From Ascidiella aspersa (Eukaryota), in contig OZ004613.1 in NCBI GenBank assembly GCA_963924565.1, forward strand, positions 10,850,001 to 10,914,000: a stretch of 64,000 nt of DNA, read 5' to 3'. The position numbers and the translations under genes are program-made. Under the pieces are notes generated by a model that had not been told where the DNA came from, ran no database searches, and saw only the letters and a program-made list of their open reading frames with translations. Of this stretch, positions 33,446-64,000 are shown in pieces. The number at the start of each line of letters is the position of its first letter. Position 1 is the stretch's first letter.

Positions 33446-36400
33446 CTAGTTTCGAAGCCACGCGAACACTTGTTGGGCGCCATACACGATCGTTGGAAAC
33501 TGCCAGTAAACACACAAGGCTAGAAGCACAACAAGCAGTGCAAAGAAAACAATCATTTCGCGCGCCATTTGGAAAAAGGCTGGGTGCTCGGCCATCCAAA
33601 CATTCCACAGGTCGCCGGCTGCGTTTTTGTGCGGAAAGGGAATTTTCGGCCTGTCGATTTGGAGGAACTTGCAGAGCGGCGCCCATCCCTCTTTCACGTT
33701 GTACACCAGAAGCTTGTCTTTCGGCGCGGTCTTGTAAGGAAGAACATAATAGTTTACTAGTATCGACATCCTAGACCGTTAATTTGGTTACACAGGAAAA
33801 GCAAATGTGTTGCTATTTAATAAAAATGTTTCTATGTAATAAAAAAAGGAATGTCGTAAACTCATTGTGCTATATCGTAAAACTTTTCAATACAGTTTTA
33901 TATTTTGACGTAATTTCTAAAGTTTAACTATACAATCTTACGAACGTGTAAGGTATCATTGAGGTAATGCCTACAACTGATTGTACGGTGAGCTTTTTTA
34001 GGTTATTTCATCACCGAAGTTCACAGAGGAGAGTGGCAGCAAGGAGAGCAGAAAACGTTGCCCTGGCCTGGCCGAAAGACTATAAGGCGGTCTCTCTCAA
34101 AGAGAGTAAGTACTAAGGTTATAAGCGGGCACAAGAATATTGCGCACTTAATAGAAAACAACATGATTATGGTTTGGCGTATATATCTACCACTCGGTAG
34201 AGCTGAAGAGTCGCTGTACCGACGTACCTTTTGACCATGCGTATGGCTTTAAACGCGAGAGGATCTACCTATTTATGCAACTTTTTTGATAAAAATTGCA
34301 AAAAATGTATAGGCCTACCTATTTTACAACAAAATTAGCCCGAAAATTGTCTCAAATTTTATCAAAGTACGTTGAAATAATTATGCTACGTTTTGTTACA
34401 AAAACCTTTGCTATAACAATTACGATATTGTTAGTCGATTTCAATCAAGCCCAATCTGAACAGGAATAGGCGAATATATATTTGTATTAAGATTCCACAA
34501 ATGCGGCTCGCCGTAATGTTTTTGTGGCTCTTCGTAAAATTCCCCAAAAATGTAAAAGGCTGCCAAGAGTACCGATTGTGAACGTTTCTCTCTTTTTATT
34601 TTCTTTATTTAGGCCAGCATTCCGTTTATGACGTTACATTAGACATAGAATCCGAAAAGTTAGTTAACAGCAAGTAAACGCAATTTCGTTGCTAACCTAA
34701 AATAGTACGCTAAGCTTTAGCTCACAATTTTGGGGTCTCTGGTACTTGTAAAGTCTAGTTGGCCAATTCAATAACATGAGAATAAACTAATGAAGAAACG
34801 TGTTTATGCTTAACAAAAGTGGAAGCTTACAAAATAAGACAAGTTTTATTTACAGTATTGCTTTCTCGGAATTTAATAATGTTTTAATAACCAAGTGACT
34901 GTGTTCAAACGACTGGCCTACATCTATTTGGTAAAAAGAATACTGCATTGATCCAAGTTTTTACACAAATTACAATGAATGTCCTGGGCAACTCTGATGA
35001 TTTTGTAAATGTTCATGAGTGGGATTCGCAAATTTTTAAATGCTTTACCGGGACTCTAAACTGACTTTAAAACTGACTTGTTTTTAAGGCCCGTTTACAC
35101 TACAGCTGCACTGAGCGGAGCTGAGCTGCAGTGGGCATGAAATTATTTTCACTACAGCTGCAGTGAGCTGCGCTGGGCGTAAAAATCGCCCCAAAACGTA
35201 ACGTGTTTCTATAGCTGCACTGGGCTTGAGTTTAGCAAAGCGTGAAAATCGCTCCTAAGCGTTTTTTTTTCAGCTGCACCGGGCTTGAGTTTAGCAAAGC
35301 GTAACTTTAAGCTTGCTGCAGCTGCTGCACCGGGCTTGAGTTTAGCAAAGCGTAACTTTAAGCTTGCTGCAGCTGCTGCACCGAGCTTGAGTTTAGCAAA
35401 GCGTGAAAGGCTCGCCACAATATAATTTGAATGCAAATTACGCTTTGCTCAGCTCAGTGCAGCTGTAGTGTACACGGGCCTTTACCTGCAGCACATACGA
35501 ATTATGTCTTCGATATATCGACTTCGCCTTCGACGCTGAAAGCTTGAAATTCGAGCGTACAACATTCGAGAATATTGCCACACCTGCAAATCAAGCACCA
35601 AAGGTTGTTCACTACGTTAAGAGAAAATGTCAGCCTTGTAACGTCTCACCCATGACTTCCATGAAGCGGCTAAAACGGCGCCCGAGATAGGAGTACCAAA
35701 TAACAAGCGGCAAGTTTTCGTTAACTTTCAATTGCTTTTGCAGGCTTCTCTCCCATTGATCCTCGTCGTCTCGAAGCATGAGAATAACCTGGAGCAAAAC
35801 AAAGATGTAAAATAGCCTACGGCAGCGTGGTCCAACTTCTTTTCATCGCGAGCCCAAAACAATATTTTTTTTATCTTGCGGGTCAATGTTTTTTAATAGC
35901 AATTCTTAGGCTTATTGCTGGCAAATTATACATGGCCTATGGCAGTGGTTCTTAACCTTTTTTTAGCCGCGCCCCCCTTTGGTAATTTTCCTATGCCTCT
36001 CGCCCCCCCTACGAAAAGCAATTCGGCATTTTCAATTAAATATCACTAAGACAACTTGAAGATAGTAAAGATAGTTGTCGGTGGCGCAAATCGCGAACAA
36101 AATTGAGTTTAATTGGTTGAATTGGCACTATACTGTGAATTCAGGCTTTTCACATTGGGCACACAATGAATTGCTCGTGCTCGACACATTGATTTAAATT
36201 TTGCGTTATCTTGTTTCAAATGTGACGACACACAATACAACGGCAATATTGCAAAAACATTATATTCGCGCAAAAAAGAAAAAAAAATTGAACTCCCTTG
36301 TTGCTAGCCTGTTGTCATATATAAAATATGGATAAAAAATAGTTTAAACGGGGGATGACGTTTATCGTTTATGTAAAAGTTAGAAAAATTGTCATTAATT

Positions 36401-38257
36401 AGGGCCGTTATACCTTTGATGATAAGAAAACATGCAATGGCACTCAAAGAGACTTTGGGCTAAAACATAGTCAATAGTAGAAAAACTATATTTTTAAGGA
36501 TTTAGAGTAGGCTACCTCCTATTAAAAAAGGTGAAAAAGCGACAAAATCGTTGATTTTGCTATATTTAAGGCGCTTCAATATATTTTAATTAAATTGCAG
36601 TGTCAAATATAGGCTACAGCTAAAATTGTCATTACAAAACGCATCAGAAAGGCTACATGTAAATTAAAATTCAAAACATAAAAACGTTAAAGGTTTTAGA
36701 AATTTAGACCATGCTTGCTACAACAGCCAATGCCTTTATCTAACTAAAATGGGTTAAAAACAAAAAATGTACAAATTGTGCGCAAATATTTACAGTATAT
36801 TATTAACATTTCAAACGTCGAAAAAAATTAAGACAGAATCTAAGTAATTTCTCGATGGCGTTTCATCAATGAAACAGGTAAAATGTGGCAATCGACGCAT
36901 GTTGTCGAAGTATCCACCTAAGTAAGGTTTAGCAAGATGGCAATCGAGATCTTATTTTTCGCATCACCAGAATAACTAAATGTGGGCATTTAGCGTTCAC
37001 TAATAACTTGAACGTGCAGTTCAGAGTCTGTTTAGGGAGACCGTGGTCAAAAACCAGGTAGACCGTGTCGGGGTGTATTTTTGCGGTTTTGGGTGGGTCT
37101 AAAACTAGTTTGGTAGGACATCGCCGAATCGCGCGCTTGCGGTTTTAGCGAGATGTGAAGTTTCGATGTGGGTTTGCGGAGGCATATGTAGTAGCAACAT
37201 AAATCCGACTGCAAGAATATGGACCAATACACGTGCGGGATGCGCTTTGATTTAAGCACTTTCCATAAACATATTCCTAAAGGCAATATTTACCATGTTA
37301 AGGCAATATTTACCATGTTATTGCCTGAAATACAATGTGCAAGTTTGAGTGTTTCGAAGCATTAGAATTTTTTTAAATCTGTCGATTCGTCAATTTCTGT
37401 GTGCAGGGCGAATGGCAATATCACCGATTGTTTACCGACAAATAGCCTACCCATGTTCGTACGGAACGTTACAACGTTTTTGGCAGATCTGCACAGCTTG
37501 CTTTTTCCATCTTTTCAAATGATAAGCCATAAGTTGACAAAATCACGAAATCTAGAAACTTAACTAAATTCAAAACTAGAATTGAAATTAAATTCAAAAT
37601 CGATTTTAAAAACATCGTATTCATTCACAGATAATGTGAGTAGAAAATAATCGTACCCCAAATTTAGCAGTTTTTAAGCTGGGGACTAAGTGTGATTGAT
37701 CGTCTGGTCCCTTGTATAATTCCTAAATGAACTCAGAATACAATTATTAATGCAACGAAATACTTTTTTTACAAAATTATAAATTTAAGCTAAAGGTCGA
37801 TTTTAATCTAAACGACAATTTCAGGAACTCATTCGTTTAATTATATTCAAGTAAAAAACGAATAAAAAACAACCTAATATTTTAAATCCAGCTCGCAATC
37901 TTCAAATCCCGGGCAATAGTCGGCGCTTTATAAAACATAGGTTTAGTGATCTCTGAACTGGACCACTGGATTGTTTGCCTTGTTCAAGTCTATAGTTCTC
38001 AGTACCTTGGCATCTGGAAAAATCCTGAGCAGTTCGTCCCAGTAGTAACAAGCCGGAACATCGCAGACCGCATCCACATCTTCATAAATCTTCTTCAGGG
38101 CGTCGGCTGACCCGGTATCTTGCATTACTGCAGTCCACTCTCGCCCGGCGTAATAAAAATGGTCAATGGCGTCGTAGACCTTCATGCCGAGCTGGGTAAG
38201 CGCTACGTTTAGGGTCTTGGTCCCCGTCTTTGAAAATCCAGCAAGGATGACCTTCAT
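33446..38257 (-). CDS. P-loop sulfotransferase-like protein (Sulfotransfer_4-type), 257 aa, C-terminal TM anchor
   Basis: Exons 38257-38006, 35788-35650, 35583-35486 and 33730-33446 join in frame. Motifs: MKVILAGFSKTGTKTL (P-loop/5'-PSB), DAVCDVPACYYWDEL, FPDAKVILMLRD..W..S, YRRHNSYV...PKDKLLVYNVKEGWAPLCKFL, PFPHKN, then hydrophobic MIVFFALLVVLLALCVYW. Confidence 0.88.
35087..35481. mobile_element. PIF/Harbinger-type MITE (395 bp) with internal tandem repeats
   Basis: ~30-bp TIRs AGGCCCGTTTACACTACAGCTGCACTGAGC / GCTCAGTGCAGCTGTAGTGTACACGGGCCT (1 mismatch). 3-bp TSD TTA at 35084-35086 and 35482-35484. Confidence 0.9.
35214..35404. repeat. Four copies of a ~30-bp core inside the Harbinger MITE (51-bp period for the last three)
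   Basis: GCTGCACYGRGCTTGAGTTTAGCAAAGCGT at 35214, 35273, 35324 and 35375. Confidence 0.9.
35823..36060. mobile_element. Left ends of two nested hAT-like elements (35823 and 35943)
   Basis: CAGCGTGGTCCAACTTCTTTT and CAGTGGTTCTTAACCTTTTT resemble the other TIR starts. Matching right ends were not found. Confidence 0.45.
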
Positions 38258-40316
38258 GTCGTTCAAAAATGCACTCGTCTTTTTATTTAATTAATGAAGG
38301 TCGAATACTGAACAACCTCTGTCTAAAAGCAAACTGGATTTGAATCGACAGAACAAAATTTACGCCTAAACGAAACTTTTAGGATGTTGAAACATGTACA
38401 AAAGTTATATTTTTAACCTTTTGTATTAAGGGGCCCCTTTTGTACCGTCAAAGTGATCGTATAGTCCCGACACCTTTTTCAGTTCTCCATGACTCCTAAC
38501 GAAACCTGATGTTGCATACTATGTAGATTGCAACAAGTAAAAAACAGAAACAATTGGATTTACGGTTTTTAACCCGTTTTAATTTTCCCACTTGAGCATA
38601 GACGTTATGTTTTAACATGTTATTTTCGCAAAACTTTCACAAAATTAATAAAAAACGGTTCCAAATGCAGCGGTGTTATGGTTTTCAATCAATCAATTGA
38701 CCTTAATGCCCATTTCTCTTGAACCAGTGTGTTTGCCGCCGAAAATCTACAATCCGCCTATTTACCTTATAAAACCTAACGTATTCTATAAAAACCACGT
38801 AGGGGCAACATTTCACATGCAATTGGACTTTCATTCTAACCATACAAGTGTGAACATAACAAAAGTCACATCTAGGCTTACGTTTTAAACCAAATGCCTG
38901 CTAAATTCCCACATTACATTTGCTGTATATTAACAATGTTTTAAAGTATGAGGACAGCTTAAATTAACAGCACAATTTAGCTCACAATAACCTTTAAACT
39001 CCATAAAACGAACCTAGCTCTTTAGAACAGATTCAATTCTAAGGCATGTTTGCCTAAAACCTCCAACATTTCCTAAACTTTATGAATTGCAAACCCACAA
39101 AGGTCAAGCAAATCGACATCGGCGTGACGTTTCTAGGTAATCATAATGTTAGTTAATCATTAACTAAAAATGATACAAAATTGGCTTTGCAATTCATTTT
39201 TAAGCTGCATTACATTTCCTAAACTTGTCCTAACAATTTCCCACATTTGTCGTCTAACGCAAACATTAAGACATTCATAAGCTAACACTTCAACACACTT
39301 TAAGTTAGTCCGTTCACTTAAGAGCAATACAATCTAGCCGGCAAATAAATTGATCATCGTTCTCCCAGCAGAGTTAGGCTCCGTTCACCAAAATAGCAAG
39401 ACCCACCAAAGCACGGCGTTGGTTATATGCTGAGTTTAGTTGTGGAGTGAGATATGTTTTAACGTATGGTATGCTATATTTTCATTTCTTAATAAATGCA
39501 AAACAAAATATCGTCTCGCATTTTGGAGAAATGTCACAAAGCAAAAACTTTGGGTGCTTACTGCTTAGCCTTACTACAATAAACTGGGCTTAACGAAGCG
39601 AAAAGCAACTCGTTTTTAAAGTAAGTGGAAGTCATGCGCTTACAATAGAGATTTGGAACGTTGTTTTTGAAGATCGAGTGTCTCGGCAGCATTGTGACGA
39701 ACAACTTGCGACAGTCTTTAAACGAAAAGAAGTTTCTTTTTTAAACGAATTTTTAATTAGAATGTCTGTTGTTTTGAATACTTCATATTTATCCAACTAG
39801 TTTTTCTTCACACGTCGGTAGCCCACACAACTAGTCTGCGGTCACCAGTCAGATTAGAGTCCCATTGTTTCGTTAACGACTGTCAAGTAATTATTTTAAA
39901 TTTGCAAGAATAACGTGTAACAAATGTTTCATTATAGATCACCCAAATGACTTAAATAAATAAAATATGTAGAACGTAAACTTTTCAATTAACCATGGCA
40001 CACCTAAAATACAGCACTCTAAAAAAACGCTGTAATTATAACCACCTCTTAAATAGGTAGCGGCACCTATAGTGTTGCATTCCCAAGATATTAAGTGCGT
40101 GGAGGCCAAATCGAAATTATTTTCAGAATGCGACCTTAAACCTATCATTTTAAAACACTATACGGTTCACCACCAAACTATAAAGTGTGCGTCCAGAACA
40201 AAGTAGCTACCGGTACGTGTAATATATTTGGAATCCGCCTGCTCTAAAGAGCCGAAATCTTCCGCTGGAAAGAAATGTGAAGTTACACAAGCTATTCATT
40301 TACACATAAAGCTATG

Positions 40317-40450: not shown

Positions 40451-43400
40451 TCAGGAACGAGGCAACATTTGCTCCCGACTCTCCGACTTCCTCATGTGGA
40501 AGACCGAATGGATGGCGGAACGGATGCCGGACCTCCCTGGTGGCTGACCTTGAACTTCGCATGAAAGAAAGAGGTGATAAAATTGTTTAGCTTAGGTGGG
40601 GCGGGTTGACAAATAGAGTGTGTCACCTTCAAAAATGATTGCTAATTTTTTATTTACAGTAAATTTTTGTCTATAGACATTTTAGGAGAAATGCAGTTCC
40701 TAGAAAAAATCGTTACTACGTCAAATCTCAAGCACAATATTAGGCTTAAAAAAAAAAACACGAGACACATGGCTTAATGTTATAATGTTAAGAAGATCCA
40801 AGTAAGTATATAAAGGTTGTTTGAGTCTACCGCCATCACGAATAAACGGGGAAAAGATAACACGAATATTGCAATAAGTTAACTATATTAGGCTCGAGTG
40901 AACAGCAGCAGCCGCAATCTACATGTTTAGCAGAAGAAACGAAGTTGACACAATTTCAGCAGCAAATCAGCTCTTAAAGTGATAAATGATTACCAGGAGG
41001 TGATCTTTAGTAAGAGTAACTTACCGTAAATGATGTCCATGTTCTGCATCTCCTCAACGCTGTCGGTTTCCATGGGCAAGACCATGTGTCCGAACCTCTG
41101 CTGATCACGTGGAGACTCGCTGGAGGAGATGGAACTGCTGGAGCGATCAACTCCACTATCCTGTGCGTTGTAAACAGCGTGTTTGGGCGAATCAATGTCA
41201 ACGACATCACAAATTCTACCAATCGCAAGCTCAAACTAAACCAAATACTGTAACACGCCGATAGAGGCCTACAGCTCATACCAGAATCGGTTTTGAATGA
41301 TAGCGGCACTATTCTCAAAATACTTACAACCATTTCGTCTGGAAGAGAAAGACGAACTTTTGTTGTACGTGGCGATGAATAGTTAGGGTTCGTGATGCAA
41401 TTGTTGTTGTCTGCAAATATATTGTACTTAGGACACTGGAAAAATCACTACGTTTAGATACTCTTTAAATATGTTTATGGAAATACCCATATTCGGTCAA
41501 TAACCGGTACGAAGGATCTCCGATAGTTCACATTTTAATCCCTAAAAAAGATATACTAGGGGCAAAAACGATAAGAAATTACGTCCTTGATATTAGACAA
41601 AAAATAGTTTGTTGATTTGCTGCCCACTGTAAAATGCCAACTTAATATCGGATCGATAGTGCTAACCGATACTAAACACCTATTATACATATTGCGATGA
41701 GGGTACAGTCAATGGTTGCTGTTCTTTTACTTTACTTATAATTGGTCACATATCATAGAATTAAATAACATACGATAGCTAGCCGTCAATGGCTTGGGAA
41801 ACATTGACCGTGCAAAAAATATGTGAAAAAAAAAGATAAAACGACAAAAAATGCTTCCAACCTATTTCTGGTACTTCCTCTATGCCATCTTTCTTGTTCG
41901 CCCTATTTCGCTGCACCCGCCACTTGCGGCGCGGCTGAGCAGAGTAGTGGACGTCGATCGATTGCCGGCTTCTCCTGGGTGTGCACAAAGCAGTATTTTG
42001 ACTGTCAAACATTTACCACTGCTGTGAAGAACCATATAAGGCATTATAAACCGTGGTAAACACTGTATCACAACTTGCGTGCAGTTGCTCTTTTAAAAAG
42101 TGGACCCGGAGCTGTTTTTTTCACAGGTTAAATTTGGAAACACACGATAAGACATACAAAGCAACAATACCTAAAGCAGAACAATCTATAAAACATAGTT
42201 TTAGGACCCAACGAAATCAAAAAAGCCAAATGCAGTAATATTCACAACAGAATAAAAACCTAATCATCTGAAAAAGTCAAACCCACAGGATGAATTCCTA
42301 AATTCTTTGGAATAAGGCCTTAATGGCCGAACTATCGCCTGAAACTATATGGAGAGGGTATGGGACGGTCCGGGACCATCGGTCGTTTGTGTCGACATTT
42401 GGGAGCTCTAGTTTGAACGGCGCTGTTAATTAGTCCTATTTTGGTCTTATTCCGAACTGTGTTTATTCCGACGTTGATTTTATTCTTAGATCAGTTCGAT
42501 CTTTAGCTGGAGTCCTTACATTTTTACCGAAAGCTACTGCGGATAAAGTTACGCCACAAATTTCATCGCCCGTCTACTACTACTACTACTACTTGTAGGT
42601 TGGCCAAATCAATTCAGGCTTAGGGTTAAATGCTTAGAAAAATGTTTTTTTTATCAATAATGCCCCGAACTTGTATTGCCGATGAACTTTTGACTGTAAT
42701 TCCAAACGCTAATTTACTGCATACCGTTTGGCTATTTAAATCTAGGCCGGTCCTCTAATGGTTCAAGAAAATGTTTAAAAGTGTGTCGACTGAGAATTTA
42801 CTGATTTTAAAACTTACTTGTAACACTGAAACACAATGAAGCCGGCGATGCAGCCGATTATGATAAGCGCCACCACAACGCCGACAATCTTGGGCACGTA
42901 CATAGAGATCAGGCCGTTCATGAGGTCTTCGGGTGAGCTCTCACTTACGCCGGAAACCGACAGGTTCGCCGGAATTTTGTTCGGCGTTGATGCTGTGGTT
43001 ATTTTGCTGGAGGGCCAAGCCGTACTTTGTGACGTCACAGTCGTGATGTTGGCGGTAACGGTTGGTGTGGCTATGACGTCATCTGAGCTGGCGTGTTGGC
43101 AGGAGGTTGCTAGATCGCCGTTGCCGCATTGGCAAATTCCAACTAATGGAGGTTAGGTATATTCAGTATAAAATCGCCTTAAAATATTGTATAGACAGGA
43201 CTTATCAGTTTAAATGGGTTTTTCATTAATGTTGCTAGGTGCACATCGAAAAATCAAAAGCACTATTCAGTTGTTTGTACTAATAGGATGCAAGTAATGG
43301 TGCTATCGGTTTGTTTCTATGTGTACCATTCTTCTAAGCCTGTGTAGTTCAGGTGGAAGAGTGATGGTCCCGAAGGTCGTGAGTTTGAACCTGAGCGAAG

Positions 43401-46400
43401 GCTAGTGGTGTGCATGAATACCTTTAATTAATTCGGTTAGTCGATTGGAGAGTTGGACACTTTACTACGATGTACTATAATATGTACGCCGTTATCGTTG
43501 ATCAAATAACAACTTCAAGAAGGGCTAGATCGCAGAACATATCGTGCAACAAAGACAGTTCAGTAACAAAATTAAAGGGAAGACTTTCTCGCTACGCGTA
43601 AATTCGTCACGACTCTTCAAGTTTAAGTAGTGCTCAATAAACTTGTAGGAAGTGGAACACTTCGCGCTTACCGTTTTCTTCGATGGTAATGCACTTGCCG
43701 CCCGACCGTTCGCAGTCGAGTTCCTGGCACGTGAACGCTGCGCAATCGATCACCTTCCTGCTCCAAAAACCGGTCGAAAGACACATCACCGAAAAAGTGG
43801 TGGCCGAAGGATTTCCTGGGAAAGAAAAGTTATTAGAGGTTTTGTGATCCTTAAATTACCTTGATATGTGGCTCGTGTGATTTTGGTGAACGTAAGATTG
43901 CATTCTAATCCACGGCAGTTGTAGAGTGCGGCAATATACACAATTCGAACTGTATAATTATCTAGTTAGTGAAACATACATATACACAATGTGTGTTCTG
44001 TATGAAGCTCTTCATAGCGGCACCCACATGCGGTCCAGGTCAGTCCGGGGACGTCTTGAGTTCAAACCTCACCGCAGGCTAGTTGTTTTTCTAGCCTTGC
44101 TTGCACTACATTCCCAATCAGGCAGACTTATTTTGGTTAGCCTCTCCGTTAGGCATCTTTCTGTTATTTCTGTTATTTCTGTTACCGTTATTTCCGTTAT
44201 TTTACAAAATAAACTGCAATTGTGTGCTACAGCGCTGTTTTGTTGGCGCAATGTCTATATATTAAAATTACAAAAGTAGTGACAATTATTTGAACAAAGT
44301 CATATTTTGTAAAATACTAATTCGTGCGAGAGATTGTTTACCAACCAACAACGTGTGTGCCCGACATGCACTGGAACTGCATTGTAGCGCCAAATTCGAA
44401 CTGGTTGTTCATCAGGAGCGCGTAGGTGGCTCCGTCCGGCAGAATGCGAGCGCCGAGGTCTGGGTATTGACAAGATGGTACCGTTGCTGCTGATATCTTG
44501 GTAGTTGCTGTTGTACCAGGGGAAGCGATTGTTGTGGATTTTAATGTTGTTGGGGCTGCGGTTGGCAAGTTGAAAACGGTATTCTTTTGCGTTGTCTCGA
44601 TGGTTGAGCTGGGAACTACGGTAGGAATAGTTGCAGGCTGTTGGGTGGTCGGTTGCGTCGAGGCTTCGACGACAGGCTTGCCTAATAAAGATAATATTTT
44701 ATTTCGAGTGTTTGTAAGCGTAGTTTACTACGATATATGGTTGGTTCTCGAGCAGCCGCTTTAACTTTTGTTTCATATGTTAGTTTTAAGCAACCTTAAC
44801 AATGTAGGAAAGATATTTTTTCGTTAATGATTTGTAAGCGTAGTTTTACGGTTGGTTCTCGAGAAAGCTGTTATTAGTTTAAAGAAACCTTGACAATGTA
44901 CGAGATGGTGGGATATGTTAAATAACAGTCATTTAACGGGTCTTTTAACACAATCCCAAAAGGACTGTAAACGTGCGTTACTGTTAAGGTAGCAGTGGGA
45001 GTTTTACAGGGAGCAAGGAGATTCTTAGCAACTGAATGCGACAAAGCGTCAAACATTGTACGCACCTATGCACTTCTTTCCATCAGTATCCAGGTCAAGG
45101 TTGGCGGGACAGAGGCACGTGTGTCCACTGACGCGTAACACACACGCATGACTGCATCCAGAGTTCGCGCAGGGCATAGAATCTGTAAGTTAAAGATACG
45201 AATAAATAAGTTGACTTTCCGTAAAGTTTTGTTAATTGGATACATTCGCAATACTTGGAAGCGAAAATTTTGGTAAAAGAATAAAACGTATAAAGCATCG
45301 CACACCACTAAACATAAATGTAATTTGATAAAATCATAGATCTAGTATTTTATTTATTTTACATAATTGTATAAAAATGAAACTTTTTCGAATTTCTTCT
45401 GGTTTATATTCAGCCTTCGCAACATAATAAAAAAACAAAAAGAATGTTTTCCTCAATCTGCAATAGCCAAAATTTAAAAAAAAGTCTGCAATTTTCTGAC
45501 ATGCGGAAATAATAACCACATCGCGAATTAAAAAAAAAATCATGGTGGGAATTTGAACTACAAATAAGCGTAAAACAAATTTGTTCGTACACACAAATAC
45601 ACCGCAAAAAAGTAGTTCAACCTACCTTGACCTTGAACCGGCTGCAGGGACTGGTGGGTGACCTTGAGGGCGAGAAGGCGCGACGCCAGCTGAGAGTCCT
45701 TGTCCAACGGCTCGTGACGTTGGGGAAATCCCCAGGGCTTGCCGAGCATCGAGTCGACTTCCCAGATCTCTCCGGTTTGATTGTCGCCAAACACAAGCCG
45801 ATCCTCGTAGACCGAGAGCGCAAACGGGGATCGCATCGCAACCACGTTTAAGGACCGGGTAAGTAGGGTCTGCATATTTCTCTTATTTGCCAGCGTCGTT
45901 AAAGGTTGCGGTTCTATGGGTCCGCATTTTAGTTTTTTTTGGCGAATTGCCTAATACAAATCCAGCGCCACAACGTTTGAGTACCGGGTAAGTATAGAGT
46001 CGGCGTATTTGCTCCTCTTATTTTACTTTGTGAAGGTCAGCGATATATTTGCAAACAGCTTTATACGAATCAGGTAAGGAGCCCAGTCGTGTATATTTGA
46101 TCACTATCTTAAAGATTTGTGGAAACGGAGCTAACGAAATCAAAACTGGGATTAAAAAAACTATGGAGGCTGCCATTATGTGGTGTTATTTATCAATGTA
46201 TTACTTTCCTAAAAATCATTTTTGTCGTCCTTTGTAATGACAAGATAATTTTTATTTTTTATTTTTGTAAGTTTTAGTTTAGTTTTTTTTTTCTTAGTAC
46301 CTTAATCCAATTACGGCAAGCCATTTGTTTACTTAAAGCCTTTTTACACTATCGGTAGAGCGAAACGTTTAACATTATTTTTTAATCCTATCTTCATTTT

Positions 46401-49400
46401 AAGCCACATTATCTAACTTATGCAGGTATGGAAACAAAAAACACGTAAAGTGGGCTTACCCGCGTTTGGCTCTGATCAATTGACTTCATTTCGATTCTGG
46501 CCTGCACCGAGTTCGACTCGCTCCAGTACGCTACGTCTGTGACGTAATCGATGGTGACGTAATGAATTAGGCGTAAAGACTCGGCGGCAAAGATGGTGGG
46601 CGAACGTCCGTCCATCTCCGACAGAACGATTGTAGATGGGATTGATGACCCTTGACCTCGATTGACGACTAGCATTATCCTGCGTAAAGTATAGGAGATA
46701 CACAAAAACAGGTTTAGAAATCTGTATGATTGAATGTAAGCTGTTTAATAGACCTGGCCTAGAGCCGGATTAAAAATGCGATTTTTAGTCTATTATTTTC
46801 AAAACTAGAGCGCAGGTGAAGATCCTACTAAGCCTTACACATATTTTATCGACTGAAACACACACACATAGTTGGTCCACAAAGCAATAGCAGCACAAGA
46901 ATCAGCGACCATGTGTTTAAAAGGCAAAATGTAAACACTGTTACTGCTACTGCTAGGCCTATTTGGGATAAATTTAAAACATACGGGAGAACATCAGGTT
47001 CTTTTTTCCAAATACAACTTTACAAACGAGGTGAAATAGGCAATTTTTCTACTGCATACATAAAAACGATTGGTTAAAAAAACCACAACAATTTAACTAA
47101 GCAGCAACCCAAACGATTATCGTGTTACCTCTTAAACGGATGGACAGCTATCGAAATTGGGTCTTGATACTCAGCCAGTCGAAACACTTCATTTCCCTCG
47201 TTGACTTTTGAAACGGGAATAACTCCGACTTGACCTTTAAAGTTGGATGAAGGTCGTTGGGTTACGTAGAGGTTGAGCGAGATCCAGTCCAGGGCGATTC
47301 CGGCAACTCTGCTTACTATCGAATCAAATAAAAGCAATATTTACATACACAAACGGTTTTAAGACCTTTGAAGTTTTAATTAAATATAGGTACAAAACTG
47401 AAAGCAATATTAAAGATATAAAATATAGCAAGGGCTATCCCAGTTTGCTGGAGATTGTAGAAATAATACATAAAAAACTGAAAGCAATATTAAAGATATA
47501 AAATATAGCAAGGGCTATCCCAGTTCGCTGGGTGTTCACTGTCGTTTGGAATACTTTGCGTATACATTACGTGAATTTCTAGAGCAATTATCTTTGGATT
47601 TCATTAAAACTTCCAATATTTTTTCAACTGGCTTTAATTAATTGACTGATAGGCATGTACCTAAAATCGCGGCTAGCGTTGGTGGAAAGTTCTTTTTTTA
47701 ATTTATTGGACTTCAATAAAGTAAAGAACCGATATACACACTTTACGCAGTGAAAACAACAAGCCACGATTGGTGGTTTGTAACATGGGTCGAGAACCAC
47801 AGAGTTTGAGCTCTCGCAAAAGGTAATATCGATACAACACAGTAATAACGTAATATACTGGTCGCTTGCCTTTTACGGAGTCGGTTTTGTTGGATGAGAC
47901 CTGAAGAGAGTGGATGAGACCAGCGTCGGAATCTGCCCAGATCAGGGTGTTGCTTGCGCTGTGGAAATCCATGCTCAAGACCCTGAAGGGAAATGCACGA
48001 GCATAAGTTATTTATTGGACTTCCGACCACACACGCCGACAAAACTTTTAGCACAAACATTACGGTTTAATTTGCTAATTTTATATTTCGGTCTATTTTT
48101 CTAGTAGTTTCATTTGTTGGTTATTTTGTTATGATGATTGATTTTGTTTAGGGTCATGTTTACAAATGCTAAATTCAATTACATTTAAATGTTGTGAATA
48201 AATGTGTAAAATATAAGAGGTCATTTCAATAGATTTTCAAATTTTCTTACTAATTTTCGTCATGGGAATAAGACCGGCCTTTACAATTATTAAAGAAATA
48301 TCAAAGCCCGCATGATACTCAATATTTTCTTTGTGGTTGAAAATAACAAAAAAAATCCTGATATCCATAACACTTTTCTAAACTTTACCGGAAAATTTTT
48401 TTTTCTACCTTGGGTTCGAGTTGGGCAAGTGGACAACAACTTCCTCCAGCGACGCTTTGGACATCTCCCTTCGCACGATACGATTGTCCGAGACGTAGAA
48501 CAACATCGGAAAGTCTGCAGTTGGAAAACCGACAAGAATCGCAAACTTTTTGGATAACGGTTATTGTAACTTGGTAAAAATTGAAACATTACATACCGCG
48601 TAAAACTTTGCAGTTTATCGAAGAATGTTCATTTTGAACTTCACTGAAAAAAAAGAGTAGGGGGACGTTACATTACGCACATATTTGATCTCTTACACCA
48701 TGCCCGGTCTTGCGGTGGATTGCCGTACAACAATGTTTTTAAACCCATATGGGTCACTACCAAAAATGGGTTGCTGTTTGATTTGGTCGACTGTATAATA
48801 CTTAATTTCGTTTGGCTAAGTAAGATTGGTTCTAAGTAAAAGTTGTGTGAAATCACTATAAATTTTAAATTTATTTATGCGCGTGTATATGTTTAAAAGC
48901 CAGAAGTGGATAATTAGTCTTGATAGCGGGCTGCATGAGAAACAGAAAATGTTTCGGGGGCTGGTTTAAAAGGTAATCTCGACTACAACACAAATTGTTG
49001 ATTTATTTTAAGAATCTTTTAAATATCCTTGTTTTGACAAGCTGACCAGGAATAGTTAGGATGCCTTACAAAAGTAATATTAATTATAATTTTCCGAAGT
49101 CAAGAAAAATAAAAATAGGCTTTATTTTTGCCTTAAAAAAAAGACTTATTTTTGCCTTAAAAAAAAAGACTTATTTTTGCCTTAAAAAAAAAAGACTTAT
49201 TTTTGCCTTAAAAAAAAAAGGCTTATTTTTGCCTAAAAGGTTTTATTAATAATAAGCCGCGGGCCGTTCTTTGCCCAGGTTGGTTTTAATGAAACAAATA
49301 GTTCGGTCAACATCTTTGGTCGCCAAAGAATCAATTTTCTTCCGCTTAGCAATTCGGTCGCAGCGAAAAACATTGTGAACACTGGTGTATAACAGAAACT

Positions 49401-52400
49401 GATCACTTGTCAATATATAATTTGACGTTTTAGGTGCCACTTGACTTCAAGTTACCTGTAGCCTGTAGTGCAACTGCACACTGGGCCATTTGAAATTACT
49501 TGGCAGACCTGCTCACATACGACCTCATTGAGGTACAAATCCTTGTTCCAAATGGTCAGGTTCTTGCGTAGCAGACAACCTTTTGGCTCTATGGCAGCCC
49601 CGAAGTCAAGAAATATTTGCTGAACGACTTGGAATTAAAGATTTGAGTTAGATAACAGAAGTGAATGGTACCTAATTCTAAAAACATAAGCTAAAATTAA
49701 CATACGCCGTTAATTTTCAAATTTGATAATGTTCCGACGAATATTGTTATTATAAGCGTAAATAATCAAAGAAGCGGCTAAATAAATATGCAAGGTTTTA
49801 ATGCCCTAAAAAAATTTTGAATTCATATTCGTTCACTTTGTTTTTAATATACGAGGGATGAACTTGTTCTTTAACCGAGACTTTTTTCCTTACTTTATAC
49901 CAGACACCTTTCTACACAGATATATTACTCTTTCTTCGTCATATTTAGGCTTTGCCGCGTATAAAATACCATATTAACATTTTGTAACAGGGCGGATAAT
50001 CTCATTGATCTTTTACCTGGGCAGTTCATTTCGTCTTCAGGACTCTGATATTCCGGGGTCACATCGCAATCTCCGTCTCCATCGCACAGCCAAATCTCCG
50101 GGATGCAGCTGTTTGTGCTGTTGCATCTTGAAGTGTTGCATAGTTTTTCGTTATTTTCGTGGCGGGCGCAAAGTTTGCTAATTAGGCTTAGCAGTTCTGT
50201 ATATATGTACTTATGTACGCGATTCCCCGTGGAGGTAAACTTGATCTTACTAAAAGTCACTCAAAAATCTAGTTAGTTTACCAGGTAATTAGGCAAATGA
50301 TTTATTTTGTCCGCTGACTGTTATGCATTGCAAATAAATACAGAGATACCACGAAATACTTTACGCAAACTTTAAACTGTACTTTAAACTGTACTTTAAA
50401 CTGTACTTTAAACTGTAGCATAAGGGAAAAATATGGTCGAGTGTGACGATCCAGTATATTTCCGATCTAATTGATTTCAGTTTTTCAATTCTGCTGAATA
50501 TTTTATTATGTAGCCATAGTAAACATGTTGCTATGTGAAAAATTGCCTGGGTGTAAAGCTTTTCAAACGCCCTACTATTACGGTGAAGGCCTCAATGTAA
50601 CAAAAAGCTCGTCTGTGGTCCCAATAACTTCAGTCACGGCAAGTTACCGCCGACTGATGCAAAAAATATAGTTTTTTTGAAACATGTCGAAAGTAAATAA
50701 CCCTCTTTTACCGAACTTCGCCAGGCAAACAAGTACGAAAGGGACAGTCCTTCTCATCGCTTTGGTCGAGACAATCAATGTCGCCGTCGCACCGCCATTC
50801 AAAGGGCAGACATTCCCCGTCACAGAAAAAGTAGCGCTCTGAGCACTTGCTGGGCTCCTGCCAAAAAATCCAGTGGTTAAGCCTCCTGATTTACGTCAAA
50901 CAACTAATCCTCGCCATTTTCGCTACTGCGAAATTAAGCATCTGCCACGAACTGCTTTTAGTAAAGGCAACGTTAAAATGTCAAACGACAGCAGTAAAAC
51001 ACAGCAATTAGTTGTATAATTACGCTTAAAAAACTCATTTAACAAACACGTTGGTGAAACCAAAATAATTTTTTAGCCGAAACGATTATTTTTTTCAGGT
51101 TGACATCAAAATAAAACAAAAACATTATAAAACCGGAGAACAAAGGTCAATCTCCTGCACAAATGTGCAAGGTTGCGTCAAGCCAATTCGCAGCAAAATT
51201 ATTCGACGTAAACATTTAACCGGCACGGTGTTTACCAGCAATAATTACTTTTACGGAATATTTTCCACCACCAATGTTTTATGGATAACATTTTACAAAT
51301 ACACTGGTTGTACATGAAAGTAAATTAAAAGATCTGGAGTAGAAACTGTTAGGGTGTCCAAAATATTTAAGTAAGAATGCATCTAGCCTTAGGATAAAGC
51401 AGCAGATAACTCACCACGCATGCGATTTCGTCGGTTCCACCCAGGCAGTCCCGTTGACCGTTACACACCAGTCCTACTGGAATGCATTTCTCCTCACTAT
51501 CGCAATGCTGGTGGCCGTCCGGACATCGGTCGAATTCTACAATGTTGCAAAGACGCAAATTACAGCCTTTACAAAAAGTGTTTAAGAGGACTTTTATTCG
51601 AAAAAAATACTACGGTAAAATAACTAGACGTAATCGGATTTATCTTTTAAACAAAAAACTCCATTAGTATAGCCTTTATTTATATACACGACATGCACTT
51701 TGACTTAACCAAGTAAAGTGGTTATTTTTATAAAATCGCAAAATTATTGTCAGCTTAGAATTAAAAAGAATATACATTTCGCTTAAACGGCATCTCCTGG
51801 TTATGCATAGTAAAATTCTTGAAACACACGATTATTGTATAATACACGTTGACCATCGTCTAAAACACAATTGCATACCCATCGCTTTGGGAGAACGTGG
51901 AATTTCGTCCGATATCGACCATCAATACTTTAGGGTCGCGACCCACCTGGAGTCGCTACTATACGCTCAATCAAGGAAATCGAACGTTTGAAGATAATTG
52001 CATAGGATTAGATGGCCAAAATTCGCTTTAGTGATAAACATGTGCTTTCAGAAAGTGGAGTTATTCGAATTTTTACTTTACTATTTTTTTTTTAATTATG
52101 TTAAGATAAAAATTTCTGAGTTACATCGCACTTCATGGCCGAAATATATTTTGTACCTTATCGTCACCGATACCGATATTTGCACTTGGTATCGGACAGC
52201 GGCCCGATCCGGTTTTATCGGACATCCCCTACCCGTACCCACACGTATTTTGCTTTATTGTCGAACAAACTGCCAAAAAAATACTAAAAATATGTAAAAA
52301 TAAGCTTAAGCATCCAACTTACGACAGTTCAGCTCGTCAGATCGGTCATGACAGTCCGGTACTTGATCACAACGGTATTTGTAGGGAATCACGTCGCCAT

Positions 52401-52906
52401 CATGACACAACCAGTGAGACGAGATGGTCGTTTCTGTCGAATTAAACGTTAATATTCCTAACAATATTTCTACTGCTTACTACAACCTCTATAAATAATT
52501 TACGGCTCGCCACGGCTCAGTGCTAACATTAATTAAAATATAGAGTTCTGTAATGAAGTTAACAGAGCAGAATATATTTGAGTAAACAAATCAACCAAGG
52601 TATCTCTATAAATCAAGCCCATATCTACGCCAATATGCCGTCCACCGACATACTTTATCTTTTTTATTTTTGTTATTCATTTTTTCATAGGGCTTTGGAA
52701 CCTCGGGGTTGGTGGACTAGCACATTGCCTAAACCCTCCGTTTGTTATATCGAAAAAAGGACTACATTTTGCTACACCAGAAAGCGACAAACATAACCTA
52801 TATAACGCAACTCACCGGTTAGACAAACGTACAGAAAACCCAGCAGCAGCATCAGCAGTAAAAAATTCTGGTGGCAAACACCATTGGAAAAGCCTGATCG
52901 CGCCAT
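40451..52906 (-). CDS. LDL-receptor-family type I membrane protein, ~1028 aa: SP, 4 LDLa, EGF, YWTD propeller, EGF, mucin, CCP/sushi, EGF, mucin, TM, NPxY tail
   Basis: Phase-consistent exons: 52906-52816 (signal peptide MARSG...[15 protein letters not shown]), 52433-52323, 51536-51415, 50857-50712, 50126-50017 (LDLa), 49588-49456, 48643-48597 (EGF), 48514-48409, 47982-47870, 47578-47555, 47315-47129, 46679-46460, 45869-45626 (blades IWAD, YVTQ, LVVN, YWSE, VFGD), 45182-45066 (EGF), 44681-44346, 43815-43672, 43142-42818 (mucin/CCP/EGF/TM), 41974-41862, 41410-41328 (ITNPNY), 41235-41025, 40554-40451. They total 3087 nt with no internal stop. Confidence 0.87.
43338..43410 (+). mobile_element. 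tRNA-derived SINE head / tRNA pseudogene fragment
   Basis: GCCT...AGGC ends, A-box-like TAGTTCAGGTGG and B-box-like GAGTTTGAACC. GAAGGTCGTGAGTT resembles the elongator tRNA-Met variable/T arm. The anticodon arm is missing. Confidence 0.55.
44030..44200 (+). mobile_element. tRNA-derived SINE-like copy with tandem-repeat tail
   Basis: GTCTTGAGTTCAAACCTCACCGCAGGCTAGT matches 43377-43406. It is followed by ~75 bp of body and a (TTTCTGTTA)n tail at ~44158-44200. Confidence 0.55.
49120..49240. repeat. 5-copy ~25-bp minisatellite with variable A-tract
   Basis: (CTTATTTTTGCCTT-An-G[A/G]) x5; probably internal to a decayed MITE whose end is near 49262-49283. Confidence 0.9.
50369..50417. repeat. 12-bp tandem repeat x4
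   Basis: (ACTTTAAACTGT)4. Confidence 0.95.
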
Positions 52907-60983: not shown

Positions 60984-63735
60984 ATGCAGTGGGGAATGTT
61001 TATTTGTGTTTGTGCTTTGCTCGCTTTGCGTTGGAAATGGAACAAAGGCAAGATGCAACCTAGATCAGTTCACGTGTTTCAAGTCAGTTGGCGAAACAAG
61101 TGCAAATTGCATCAACCAAACTCAAGTTTGAGACGGGTTGTGGCATTGTATACGCGGTGATGATGAGATGAACTGTACAACCTGCAAACCAGGAGCGAAG
61201 AAGTGCGATGATGGGAAGCAATGTGCTCGCGCAACTAATTGGTGCGAAGGGTGGGATAATTGTTACGATGGTAGCGATGAGAGGAACTGCACATTCTGCA
61301 AACCAGGAGCGAAGATGTGCGATGATGGGAGGCAGTGTATTGGTGCAAAGATGTGGTGCAATGGGAGGAAGAATTGTGACGATTGGAGTGATGAGACGAC
61401 TGTAGCAGTTGTGGAAGTGGTTTGGTACATTGCAACGATGGGCTTCAGTGCGTTAGCAATGAATACATGTGTTCATATGGTCCTAATTGCTTGGACGGTA
61501 GCGACCAGTGGTTTTGTAGAGCTTGCCAGCAACAAGTGGCTAACGGTAGGATCCAGTGCGTCGGACGAAAATAGCTTTGCGATGATCGAAGTGTGTATGT
61601 TGACAACAAGTGGGTTAAAGTTATACATTGTTCAAACGAAACAAGCAAAATCATGGTTCAAGCGATCCACACTACCACGACTTGCCGCCAACTCATGGGG
61701 CCGTGTGAAGGGCGGAGAGACAGGGTTTGTGGAAATGGACAGTGGCTTTGTGAGGAGGGAACACAGACAAGTTTTTCGCGATGCAGTAACGGCAATCTCA
61801 TTCCAACTCTTGAATATTGCGACAACTACATTCGTTGCAATGACGAAGAAATTAAAACTGGACCGGGTTTTAAATGCTCGGGAACAGCCACAAGAGCAAT
61901 TTGTGTTTTACAGCAGATAAACATTTACGACGATGAACCTCAGACATTTGTTTCGTTGATGGACAATTTGTTTGCTTCTTGTGTTTGGACAAACGACTAG
62001 TTGTTTCTCAACAGCAAGTTTGTGACGGGGTTCCAGACTGTTACGATCTTTCCGATGAATGTTTGTGCGACGACCAAACCGTTTGCCATAATATATTAGG
62101 CGACGCTGGACACACTTGCCCTCCTAACCAAATGCATTGCAGTAATGAAACTGACTGCGTGGATATGGACAAAATGCTTTGCAACCCAGAAGTCATGTGT
62201 GTAGGAGAATCCAACACGAAGTATTGCGGACTCGCTCAGGAAGACAATGAAGTAGATCACATGTATTGCCGACCTGCCATATATTTACCCCCCGCACACG
62301 CCAAGAAGTGCGATGGCAGACCTGAATGTTACCACATGGAAGATGAATGCAAAGGTTGTCAGCCTCGACCCAAGTTCTGCGATGTGAAGTGCATGCTTGA
62401 CAGAGCCATTGGATGAGTAGCATGCAAGGGGGTGAAGTGGTCATTGTGCGATGAACGTGGATTGTGTCACAAGCGCCACCATTGCGCCAGTGGAACGCTC
62501 ACCAGCATCGATGTCAACAACCTTTGTGACGGAACAATAGACTGTGACGACGGATCCGATGAGGATACGACGCGATGCAACAAAACAAGGTTTTACTGTC
62601 GCAATGAAAAGCCCCTGTCTGTCGACATCAAATTGGTTGAAGATGGATTCCCTCAATGTTCGGACGGAAGTGACGAATGTCCGCCCATTAGTAAGCGAAG
62701 TTCCACTTTCTCAAATCAAAAGGAAATGATCGCCAACCCTGTTTACAGAGCCTTCTTCTGGTTAATGGGGTTGGCGGCTTGCATCGGGAATTTAGCGGTT
62801 GTCGTTATTACTATAAAGGACATCTTAAATGATAAAAATGCAAATAACTTCACAAAAAGCACCTATATATTTTTGCTTAGTTTGGCACTCGCAGATTTTC
62901 TCATGGGCAGGGCATTTATCTTATCGCAATAAGCATAAAGGGTTTACAGTTTTCGGGGAATTATTGCTCGTTTGACGCACTTTGGCGCACAAGTACTACC
63001 TGCTCCATTCTGGGGGTGTTGTGTGTTTTAGCTACCATAGCCTCTTTGGGTACTATGGCTGTCATGACAGCGTTTAGACTTGTAGCAGTTTATAAACCAT
63101 TTGTCGCTAGAACTATGGAGTTAAAGGGGATTTACATTTCATGTGCATGTGTTTGGCTGTTTGCATTTTCATTTTCACTTTCGCCTTTGTTTGATTACAA
63201 TTCAGGATACTTTGTTTCCCATGTTTGGTTTTCAAGTAGATTTTTTAAAACTGGTGAAGTTCTTAAAGAAAAAATAATTAATTTAGGCAATAAAATAAAA
63301 CCACATAACATGACGTCACTTTATTGGCATGACGTCACTCAGCTTATGAGCAAAACCTTCCCCAATCAACCGATAAAAGGAACATTTGGATATAATGGGA
63401 AAACTTGTGTTTGCATGCCCAGACTGTTCGCCTCTGCAAATGACGCTTCTTGGCAATATTCTGTGTTTCTTATCACACTCAATTTTCTGCTGTTTATTTT
63501 TATGCTTGTGGCTTACGCTCTTATTTACATACGGGGTAGCAAAATGGCTAAATCTAGAAACAAGCAACCCAACAGCGAAATGCAAAAACGCATTTCTCGC
63601 TTACTTATTACTGACTTCTGTTGCTGGATCCCAATATGTGTGCTTGCTTACTTGGCTGTTTCTGGTGTTCCACTCCCCAATGACGTTTATCTTATTAGTG
63701 CTGGTATTTTGCTTCCCATTAACAGTGCATTGAAC
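60984..63735 (+). pseudogene. Intronless LDLa-repeat rhodopsin-type GPCR (GRL101/LGR-related, no LRRs), disabled
   Basis: ATG 60984 with a hydrophobic leader, many LDLa repeats (CEGWDNCYDGSDE, CDGVPDCYDLSDEC, CDGTIDCDDGSDE) and LGR-type 7TM motifs (GNLAVV, SLALADFLMG, LITDFCCWIPI, LLPINSALN). Lesions: frameshift ~61025, TGA at 61129 in a Cys position, frameshift ~61395, TAG ~61572, shifts near 61950-62000 and 62420, a 5-nt duplication (gggca) ~62905, and truncation inside NPxxY. Confidence 0.88.
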
Positions 63736-64000
63736 CTGAGGGGGGTGAGTCGGATAATGAGTCTTCATTTATATAATTGCCAAGATGAATCGACCACACT
63801 CCTACAAGATTTGAGATGGCCTGTCTTCGTGAGGCCAGACAGGTCCAATTCTTTCCTTTAGTTCAGATACATGAACAGTCAATTTTGCTGTCTTAGTAAA
63901 AGCTGTAAAAGCCTCTCTCTGCACTATAGGCAGTACTGGGTGATACTGGTTGATACTGGTTGATACTGATTTTTATTCGATTGTGCGACTATACTTATTG

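What the first reader, a model, noticed from the sequence alone, without database searches (positions are those of the whole stretch)
40451..52906. LDL-receptor-like protein with a sushi/CCP module and extra EGF between two mucin stalks
Seen: after a complete LDLR core (4 LDLa, one EGF, six-blade propeller, EGF) come a Thr/Pro stalk, a CCP-like domain (CQYPDL...[19 protein letters not shown]...[16 protein letters not shown]), a compact EGF (CQELDC...GGKC...CQC...SC), a second stalk, the TM and an ITNPNY tail. Known: LDLR/VLDLR/LRP8 have 7-8 LDLa, two EGFs before the propeller and no CCP. Inference: a lineage-specific, exon-shuffled endocytic receptor that may link lipoprotein or yolk uptake with complement-type recognition. 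This is the best candidate for a novel component here.
Basis: partly seen in the sequence, partly recalled or inferred. Interest (0 to 1): 0.7.

Follow-up and report, generated by a model that had tools for sequence, protein, structure and literature searches.

The report
Sea-squirt LDL-type receptor with sushi stalk
This is a real, spliced sea-squirt gene for a cell-surface protein of the LDL-receptor family with an extra 'sushi' module in its stalk, kept in two other sea squirts; it likely takes up cargo and is likely controlled through its conserved tail, while a complement or yolk role is untested.

Summary
Confirmed. One 20-exon minus-strand gene (995 aa): signal peptide, 4 LA, EGF, propeller, EGF, T/P stalk, CCP, EGF, stalk, TM, ITNPNY tail. 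RNA reads support 14 of 19 junctions, including all from propeller to TM. Full-length orthologues with the same order exist in Phallusia (4 LA) and Clavelina (5 LA). None of 67 other LDLR-family hits shows a CCP, and no paper found describes the protein. The CCP is real but is the least conserved folded module and is split across exons shared with its neighbours, so it is likely a spacer; neither a complement role nor a recent exon-cassette insertion is supported. The genome keeps a separate canonical VLDLR, and two other propeller genes in it also carry membrane-proximal sushi-like modules. The scan has not noted this protein before, but noted a related design (e1-9203814). Verdict: undescribed ascidian variant of a known family; ligand unknown.

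The parts
52816..52906 (-). Exon 1: start codon and signal peptide (aa 1-30)
   Evidence: covered by stranded RNA reads; junction to exon 2 not listed in RNA, inferred from orthologue alignment
52323..52433 (-). Exon 2: LA1, lacking Cys1 and Cys3 in all three orthologues
   Evidence: Pfam PF00057 41.4 bits; junction to exon 3 in 4 reads
51415..51536 (-). Exon 3: LA2 (no Trp, CN instead of CD)
   Evidence: Pfam 32.6 bits
50712..50857 (-). Exon 4: LA3 (EWxCDG motif invariant) and start of LA4
   Evidence: Pfam 36.3 bits
50017..50126 (-). Exon 5: rest of LA4 (WxCDG)
   Evidence: Pfam 25.4 bits; junction from exon 4 in 5 reads
49456..49588 (-). Exon 6: single pre-propeller EGF with conserved insert (CxLRK...W)
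   Evidence: Pfam FXa_inhibition E 6.6e-5, below cut-off
48597..48643 (-). Exon 7 (47 nt): sixth Cys of the EGF
   Evidence: found; junction to exon 8 in 3 reads
45626..48514 (-). Exons 8-12 (48514-48409, 47982-47870, 47315-47129, 46679-46460, 45869-45626): degenerate YWTD-type beta-propeller, aa 254-540
   Evidence: all internal junctions in RNA; orthologue model mostly pLDDT 80-90 here, Foldseek best LRP2/ApoER2/LRP4/LRP6/LDLR
45066..45182 (-). Exon 13: post-propeller EGF
   Evidence: Pfam FXa_inhibition 33.3 bits, cut-off 33.4; RNA junctions
44473..44681 (-). Thr/Pro/Ser stalk 1 (aa 583-652), first part of exon 14
   Evidence: S+T+P about 0.5; 1 of 70 invariant; pLDDT <50 in orthologue
44346..44472 (-). 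CCP/sushi N-half (Cys1, Cys2), end of exon 14
   Evidence: junction to exon 15 in 3 reads
43672..43815 (-). Exon 15: CCP C-half (Cys3, Trp, Cys4) and first three Cys of the juxtamembrane EGF
   Evidence: junction to exon 16 in 7 reads
42818..43142 (-). Exon 16: rest of EGF, stalk 2, transmembrane helix (about 42891-42826)
   Evidence: TM helix in orthologue model
41862..41974 (-). Exon 17: basic stop-transfer and juxtamembrane tail (acceptor inferred)
   Evidence: donor RNA-supported; acceptor chosen by match to Phallusia
41328..41410 (-). Exon 18: ITNPNY (NPxY) block, 41396-41379
   Evidence: 13 of 16 invariant; 5 of 5 listed RNA differences synonymous
41025..41160 (-). Exon 19: DSGVDRS plus serine run (beta-TrCP-type motif, 41160-41140)
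   Evidence: 11 of 17 invariant; RNA junctions
40451..40554 (-). Exon 20: conserved C-terminal block and stop
   Evidence: 9 of 14 invariant; junction in 12 reads

Best explanation
The gene encodes a single-pass LDL-receptor-family protein of sea squirts that likely binds basic ligands on its LA3-LA4 pair, is likely lifted off the membrane by a stalk of mucin, sushi and EGF modules acting as a spacer, and is likely internalised and turned over through its conserved tail. Shown: gene structure, transcription, domain order, conservation in three ascidians. Inferred from family knowledge: Ca2+-dependent lysine capture by LA3/LA4 (Trp plus acidic residues kept; LA2 lacks them); adaptor docking at ITNPNY; phosphorylation of DSG-x-x-R-S and the serine run recruiting beta-TrCP for endocytosis or degradation, as described for GHR, PRLR and IFNAR. 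Inferred from loss of the K560/H562/H586-equivalent residues: cargo is probably not released by the LDLR fold-back, so the receptor may be degraded with its cargo or release it another way. The ligand is unknown.
For: One ORF, 14 of 19 junctions in RNA. Orthologues P0054 and P0047 with the same order. Fold matches LRP2/ApoER2/LDLR; Atlas nearest clusters LRP8/VLDLR. Tail: 45 invariant columns vs at most 14 in 60 shuffles; DSGx(2-3)S in the last 200 aa of 0 of 67 other hits. beta-TrCP consensus DpSGXXpS or DpSGXXXpS (PMC5514133, passages); receptor endocytosis through DSGxxS (PMC7708378, passages). NPxY as adaptor docking site (PMC11325810, PMC11772764, passages). K560/H562/H586 in LDLR release (PMC5452030, passages); equivalents are N/S, A and S in the three ascidian proteins, while 6 of 9 LDLR-class rows keep K or R plus the second His. 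CCP and stalks are the least conserved parts.
Against: No ligand, tissue or trafficking data. The tail lacks the canonical FxNPxY (Ile for Phe), and in LRP1 the NPxY motifs are not the main endocytosis signal. A propeller remodelled yet 24% invariant could equally be a signalling-ligand site. The degron is a short motif in a Ser-rich region, seen in only three sequences. Mapping of LDLR residue numbers onto motifs is from recall. A fast-evolving CCP could be a variable recognition site rather than a spacer.
Confidence: 0.6

Rival explanations
1. It is a signalling co-receptor of the LRP4/LRP5/6 kind: the propeller top face (a conserved His replaces the Asn of the WPNG motif) binds a secreted factor and the Ser-rich phosphorylated tail relays or terminates a signal.
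For: Propeller has 70 of 287 invariant residues despite losing YWTD; His at the WPNG-Asn position in 3 of 3; acid-release residues absent; the DSG motif is typical of signalling receptors.
Against: No PPPSP motifs in the tail; N-terminal LA cluster with intact LA3/4 and an NPxY fit cargo receptors; the genome has separate multi-propeller LRP4-like and other LRP genes.
Confidence: 0.2
2. It is a vitellogenin or lipoprotein receptor, a shortened relative of yolkless/VgR (first 5-LA cluster and first propeller joined to a sushi-bearing membrane-proximal part).
Against: Grouping with LDLR/VLDLR/LpR is also not rejected (p-AU 0.56); a canonical 8-LA VLDLR exists in the genome; no ovary data; only two canonical LA repeats.
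Confidence: 0.13
3. It is a complement or opsonin uptake receptor in which the CCP binds C3-type fragments.
For: The CCP is real; LRP1 lists C3 among its ligands; single sushi domains can bind proteins, e.g. IL-15Ralpha (PMC6852297, passages).
Against: One CCP only, buried between mucin stalks next to the membrane; 5 non-Cys invariant residues of 67; C3b-binding regulators use tandem CCPs (recalled); sushi modules are very common in this genome (150 of 150 scored candidates over cut-off) and sit near the membrane in unrelated propeller genes.
Confidence: 0.06
4. The exons belong to two genes or to a pseudogene.
For: 5 of 19 junctions are not listed in RNA; 4 reads give exon 2 a different upstream partner.
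Against: Unbroken RNA junction chain from exon 7 to the TM exon; two full-length orthologues; 13 of 22 listed coding differences synonymous and 5 of the 9 others in stalks.
Confidence: 0.01

Closest known systems
Phallusia mammillata CAB3264563.1 / A0A6F9DNK7 ('LDLR 1-like', P0054) and Clavelina lepadiformis XP_076825508.1 / A0ABP0FSU8 ('uncharacterized', 'Sushi domain-containing protein', P0047/P0052)
   Same: Orthologues: same domain order, 4-Cys LA1, EGF insert, CCP-EGF, three tail blocks; propeller 48% and 35% identical
   Different: Clavelina has a fifth LA and a short stalk 2; both are automatic annotations, with no functional study found
LDLR / VLDLR / LRP8 (ApoER2) and insect lipophorin receptors
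   Same: N-terminal LA cluster, one propeller with flanking EGF, S/T-rich stalk, TM, NPxY
   Different: 4-5 LA not 7-8; one EGF before the propeller; no exact YWTD; acid-release residues absent; CCP plus EGF inside the stalk; ITNPNY not FDNPVY; DSG motif
Yolkless / arthropod vitellogenin receptors and LRP2
   Same: Top-scoring propellers and best fold matches (LRP2)
   Different: Those have two or more LA clusters and three or more propellers; no CCP in the hits screened
C-type lectin group 14 (CLEC14A, CD93, CD248)
   Same: Order sushi, EGF, mucin stalk, TM (PMC6852297, passages)
   Different: No C-type lectin domain; the head is LA-EGF-propeller; no homology shown, probably convergent

Membership tests
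LDL receptor superfamily | Cys-rich class A ligand-binding repeats | tested here: met
   4 of 4 repeats over Pfam cut-off
LDL receptor superfamily | EGF / YWTD-type beta-propeller / EGF module | tested here: met
   Fold level: orthologue model and Foldseek E 4e-33 to LRP2; PF00058 E 3.3e-8 in Clavelina; exact YWTD words absent
LDL receptor superfamily | Type I TM protein with cytoplasmic NPxY | tested here: met
LDL receptor superfamily | Ca2+-dependent, RAP-competable ligand uptake | not testable with these tools
   needs cell assays
LDLR/VLDLR/LRP8 core subfamily | 7-8 LA repeats and two EGFs before the propeller | tested here: not met
   4 (5 in Clavelina) LA, one EGF
LDLR/VLDLR/LRP8 core subfamily | Propeller K560/H562/H586 release surface and FxNPxY | tested here: not met
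   N/S, A, S at the equivalent columns; ITNPNY (number-to-motif mapping recalled)
LDLR/VLDLR/LRP8 core subfamily | Propeller groups with that clade | tested here: inconclusive
   outside it in quick trees but grouping not rejected, p-AU 0.56
Sushi/CCP domain | Four Cys and invariant Trp | tested here: met
   C653, C687, C706, W712, C719; four Cys and Trp present in all three orthologues; definition from PMC6852297
Sushi/CCP domain | Pfam PF00084 gathering score | tested here: not met
   13.8 vs 20.7 for the half exon; not listed for the full orthologues
Sushi/CCP domain | CCP fold | tested here: met
   Atlas model, residues 625-740 of P0054: TM 0.50-0.64 to 10 Sushi-containing clusters, 9 of them aligned or named as Sushi/complement proteins; all-beta, pLDDT about 80 in my full-length model built without added CCP rows
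Complement regulators/receptors (RCA, CR1/CR2) | Tandem CCP arrays forming a C3b/C4b site (recalled) | tested here: not met
   single CCP
Yolkless/VgR | Two LA clusters, three propellers | tested here: not met
   one cluster, one propeller
Yolkless/VgR | Oocyte expression and vitellogenin binding | not testable with these tools
   tissue of run X3 not given
C-type lectin group 14 | N-terminal C-type lectin domain | tested here: not met
   none in Pfam scans

The most novel reading that the evidence does not exclude
An ascidian-specific branch of the LDL-receptor family that has dismantled the acid-triggered fold-back release switch, rebuilt its propeller top face around a conserved His, and acquired a cytokine-receptor-style beta-TrCP phosphodegron: a one-way, phosphorylation-gated receptor destroyed with its cargo or signalling through it, possibly born from a yolkless-type gene with a sushi stalk.
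Probability: 0.2. Interest if true: 0.6.

Novelty: new variant of a known kind. Interest (0 to 1): 0.38.

Why it matters
It adds an undescribed, conserved member to the tunicate LDL-receptor repertoire (a published survey lists four family members in Ciona, PMC10339998, passages). Its loss of the LDLR release residues together with a conserved degron-like tail is a natural test of whether this family can work without recycling. It does not, on present evidence, link lipoprotein uptake to complement.

Tried and rejected
Word-indexed homologue search with one propeller exon: 0 of 63 candidates; with the Clavelina C-terminal third: only itself among 4114; weak evidence of absence, as it missed the Phallusia orthologue. 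Separate fold of the CCP-EGF fragment: pLDDT 51.7, and its structure search gave nothing above Z 2.4: uninformative. Propeller trees: sister group unresolved; the careful search did not finish; the test with LRP1 last propellers did not finish; 27 of 90 rows (long-branch, redundant) were left out of the second tree. Fifth LA in the intron 50016-49589: none found. Close paralogue in this genome: none, only two degraded exon-11-like scraps. Yolkless-type gene with sushi in this genome: no CCP hit at the thresholds used in the seven stretches scanned downstream of other propeller genes; split CCPs can be missed, so not excluded. Source of the 30-nt loose end: not in window or genome. Literature searches without a description of this protein: (listings read; the library lacks most subscription papers; no supplements were read, and expression tables there could list the Ciona orthologue). 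Ciona, Styela, Botryllus and Oikopleura orthologues were neither found nor excluded. No complex prediction was run.
Full report
Gene model. Reading the minus strand and testing splice phases gave one ORF of 995 aa over 20 exons from ATG 52906 to the stop ending at 40451, including a 47-nt exon that supplies the last Cys of the first EGF. A stranded RNA run with the same species label as the DNA holders (X3, about 6% of it read; many reads 5-10% different from the assembly) shows 14 of the 19 junctions, among them every junction from exon 7 through the propeller, EGF, stalk, both CCP halves and the EGF to the TM exon. Not listed: 52816/52433, 51415/50857, 50017/49588, 49456/48643, 42818/41974; a second, laxer lay did not add them. 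The last four agree with the Phallusia orthologue. The first is open: 4 reads continue from exon 2 into a sequence absent from the window and, at up to 2 mismatches, from the genome. Of 22 listed RNA differences in coding sequence (the table showed 40 of 90 rows), 13 are synonymous, including 5 of 5 in the NPxY exon; 5 of the 9 replacements lie in the stalks.

Domains. Four LA repeats pass Pfam's cut-off. LA1 lacks Cys1 and Cys3 and LA2 lacks the Trp/Asp pair, whereas LA3 and LA4 keep W-x-C-D-G in all three orthologues; from general knowledge of the family (recalled) these two are the likely lysine-binding cages. The propeller is too divergent for Pfam in the window's exons and for a PF00058 scan of the genome, but exons hit LRP2/LRP4/LRP6 weakly, the AlphaFold model of the Phallusia orthologue has a confident all-beta domain there, and Foldseek returns LRP2 (E 4e-33), ApoER2, LRP4, LRP6 and LDLR. 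The CCP has four Cys and the Trp, scores 20.0 bits on a profile from 69 CCPs of this genome against at most 9.1 in Cys-fixed shuffles, folds at pLDDT about 80 in the full-length model with no CCP rows added, and the Atlas model matches Sushi-protein clusters at TM 0.50-0.64. It is below Pfam's cut-off, and my separate fragment model failed.

Distribution. A profile-free search with one propeller exon gave 51 hits, of which one full-length and six exon-sized ORFs align along the exon; the rest I judged repeat-driven from their multi-stretch matches and the few inspected. The full-length one is Clavelina lepadiformis XP_076825508.1, whose isoform UniProt already labels 'Sushi domain-containing protein'. 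Using it found Phallusia mammillata CAB3264563.1. Both have the whole architecture. The other 67 of 69 hits are LDLR-family or LA-bearing proteins of other animals; none lists PF00084, and their best CCP-profile score is 3.9 bits against 9.5-18.8 for the three ascidian proteins. Only the 7993 best candidates of 540-1721 aa were scored, so this is not a census. The window is therefore ascidian by homology, nearest Phallusia (propeller 48%).

Context in the genome. The gene has no close paralogue. A canonical VLDLR-type gene with 8 LA and FDNPVY lies on C2, so this gene is not its stand-in. Two other propeller genes carry HYR and sushi-like modules before a TM (C4 11.44 Mb, C3 28.58 Mb; HYR over Pfam cut-off, one sushi at E 0.003, the other only by my half-profile and Cys pattern). 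An earlier unchecked note describes an ascidian yolkless-type receptor with two juxtamembrane sushi on another genome (e1-9203814); no look-alike of the present protein is on record. Sushi next to the membrane of propeller receptors thus seems a recurring ascidian theme.

Origin. The three propellers form a clade (SH-aLRT 99-100) on a long stem without a supported sister. Holding them with LDLR/VLDLR/LpR is not rejected (p-AU 0.56), nor with VgR first propellers (p-AU 0.74); both constrained trees beat the quick free tree, so these trees are weak. VgR first propellers rank 2nd to 4th by profile score. The CCP is not a self-contained exon: an intron cuts it at the central Gly, its halves share exons with stalk 1 and with the EGF, and the EGF is itself split, unlike most of the top 150 CCPs of this genome, which match nearly full length in one open frame. 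If it came by exon shuffling, the event is old and its traces are gone.

What is conserved. Invariant positions in three orthologues: LA 40-42%, propeller 24%, tail 30%, CCP 12% (8 of 67), stalks 1%. The tail has 45 invariant columns against at most 14 in 60 shuffles, in three blocks: [15 protein letters not shown] (13 of 16), DSG-x-x-RS-x-SS-x-SS-x-x-SP (11 of 17) and a C-terminal F-x-x-RK-x-ES-x-E-x-MLP (9 of 14). DSGxxxS fits the beta-TrCP consensus (PMC5514133), a motif that drives endocytosis of GHR, PRLR, IFNAR and EpoR (PMC7708378), and no such motif stood in the last 200 residues of the 67 other hits. In the propeller, no exact YW[TSAV]D survives, the columns equivalent to LDLR K560, H562 and H586, which hold LA4 at acid pH (PMC5452030), read N/S, A and S, and the Asn of WPNG is a His in all three (the assignment of numbers to motifs is recalled).

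Mechanism. Shown: a transcribed, conserved type I membrane protein with this order of modules. Inferred: ligand capture on LA3-4; elevation by a glycosylated stalk in which CCP-EGF is a stiff spacer, an order that recurs in C-type lectin group 14 proteins (PMC6852297); adaptor docking at NPxY (PMC11325810, PMC11772764); phospho-dependent ubiquitylation at the DSG block; no LDLR-type fold-back release. I put this at 0.6, a signalling co-receptor at 0.2, a yolk receptor at 0.13 and a complement receptor at 0.06.

Literature. Searches showed no paper on this protein (listings only). Passages were read from PMC9935665 and PMC8495957 (sushi mentions unrelated), PMC4523013, PMC10339998, PMC5452030, PMC11325810, PMC6852297, PMC11772764, PMC7708378 and PMC5514133; no whole texts and no supplements.

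Verdict. Real, correctly read, and apparently undescribed, but a domain-architecture variant of a well-known family whose automatic annotation already notes the sushi domain. Interest 0.38.

Noticed in passing
window 52433-52435: 4 RNA reads join exon 2 to an upstream sequence (median 71 nt) not found in the window or genome; its first 30 nt read in frame without a stop, suggesting an extra or alternative 5' exon in that sample.
   Followed up: partly
window 47870-47869: GC-AG intron, supported by 7 reads.
   Followed up: yes
G000 C4:11436000-11447000 (L065, L066): Gene with two YWTD propellers, EGF, HYR, a sushi-like module, Thr stalk and TM; no LA found in 30 kb.
   Followed up: partly
G000 C3:28574000-28594000 (L076-L078): Gene with several propellers, HYR-type repeats, sushi, an ephrin-receptor-like Cys repeat and TM.
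   Followed up: partly
G000 C2:22395000-22442000 (L070-L072, L107, L108): Canonical VLDLR-type gene (8 LA, FDNPVY) with an extra EGF after the propeller EGF; a published survey reported VLDLR missing from Ciona.
   Followed up: partly
G000 C3:6703082-6703201 (L097) and C4:8350741-8350833 (L096): Short degraded copies of part of exon 11 at unrelated places, with no other exon nearby.
   Followed up: partly
window 61132-63861 (+): Intron-poor LA-repeat G-protein-coupled-receptor-like gene lying in several frames (frameshifts), probably a pseudogene of a large family.
   Followed up: no
window 33446-38290 (-): Sulfotransfer_4 family gene, transcribed at its 5' exon.
   Followed up: no
window about 81-30556 (+): Long gene with a PH domain, resembling CNK/IPCEF1 scaffolds (PH by Pfam; family name recalled).
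   Followed up: no
window 42429-42464 and 44049-44111: Short dispersed repeats inside introns with reads on both strands and copies on other contigs.
   Followed up: no
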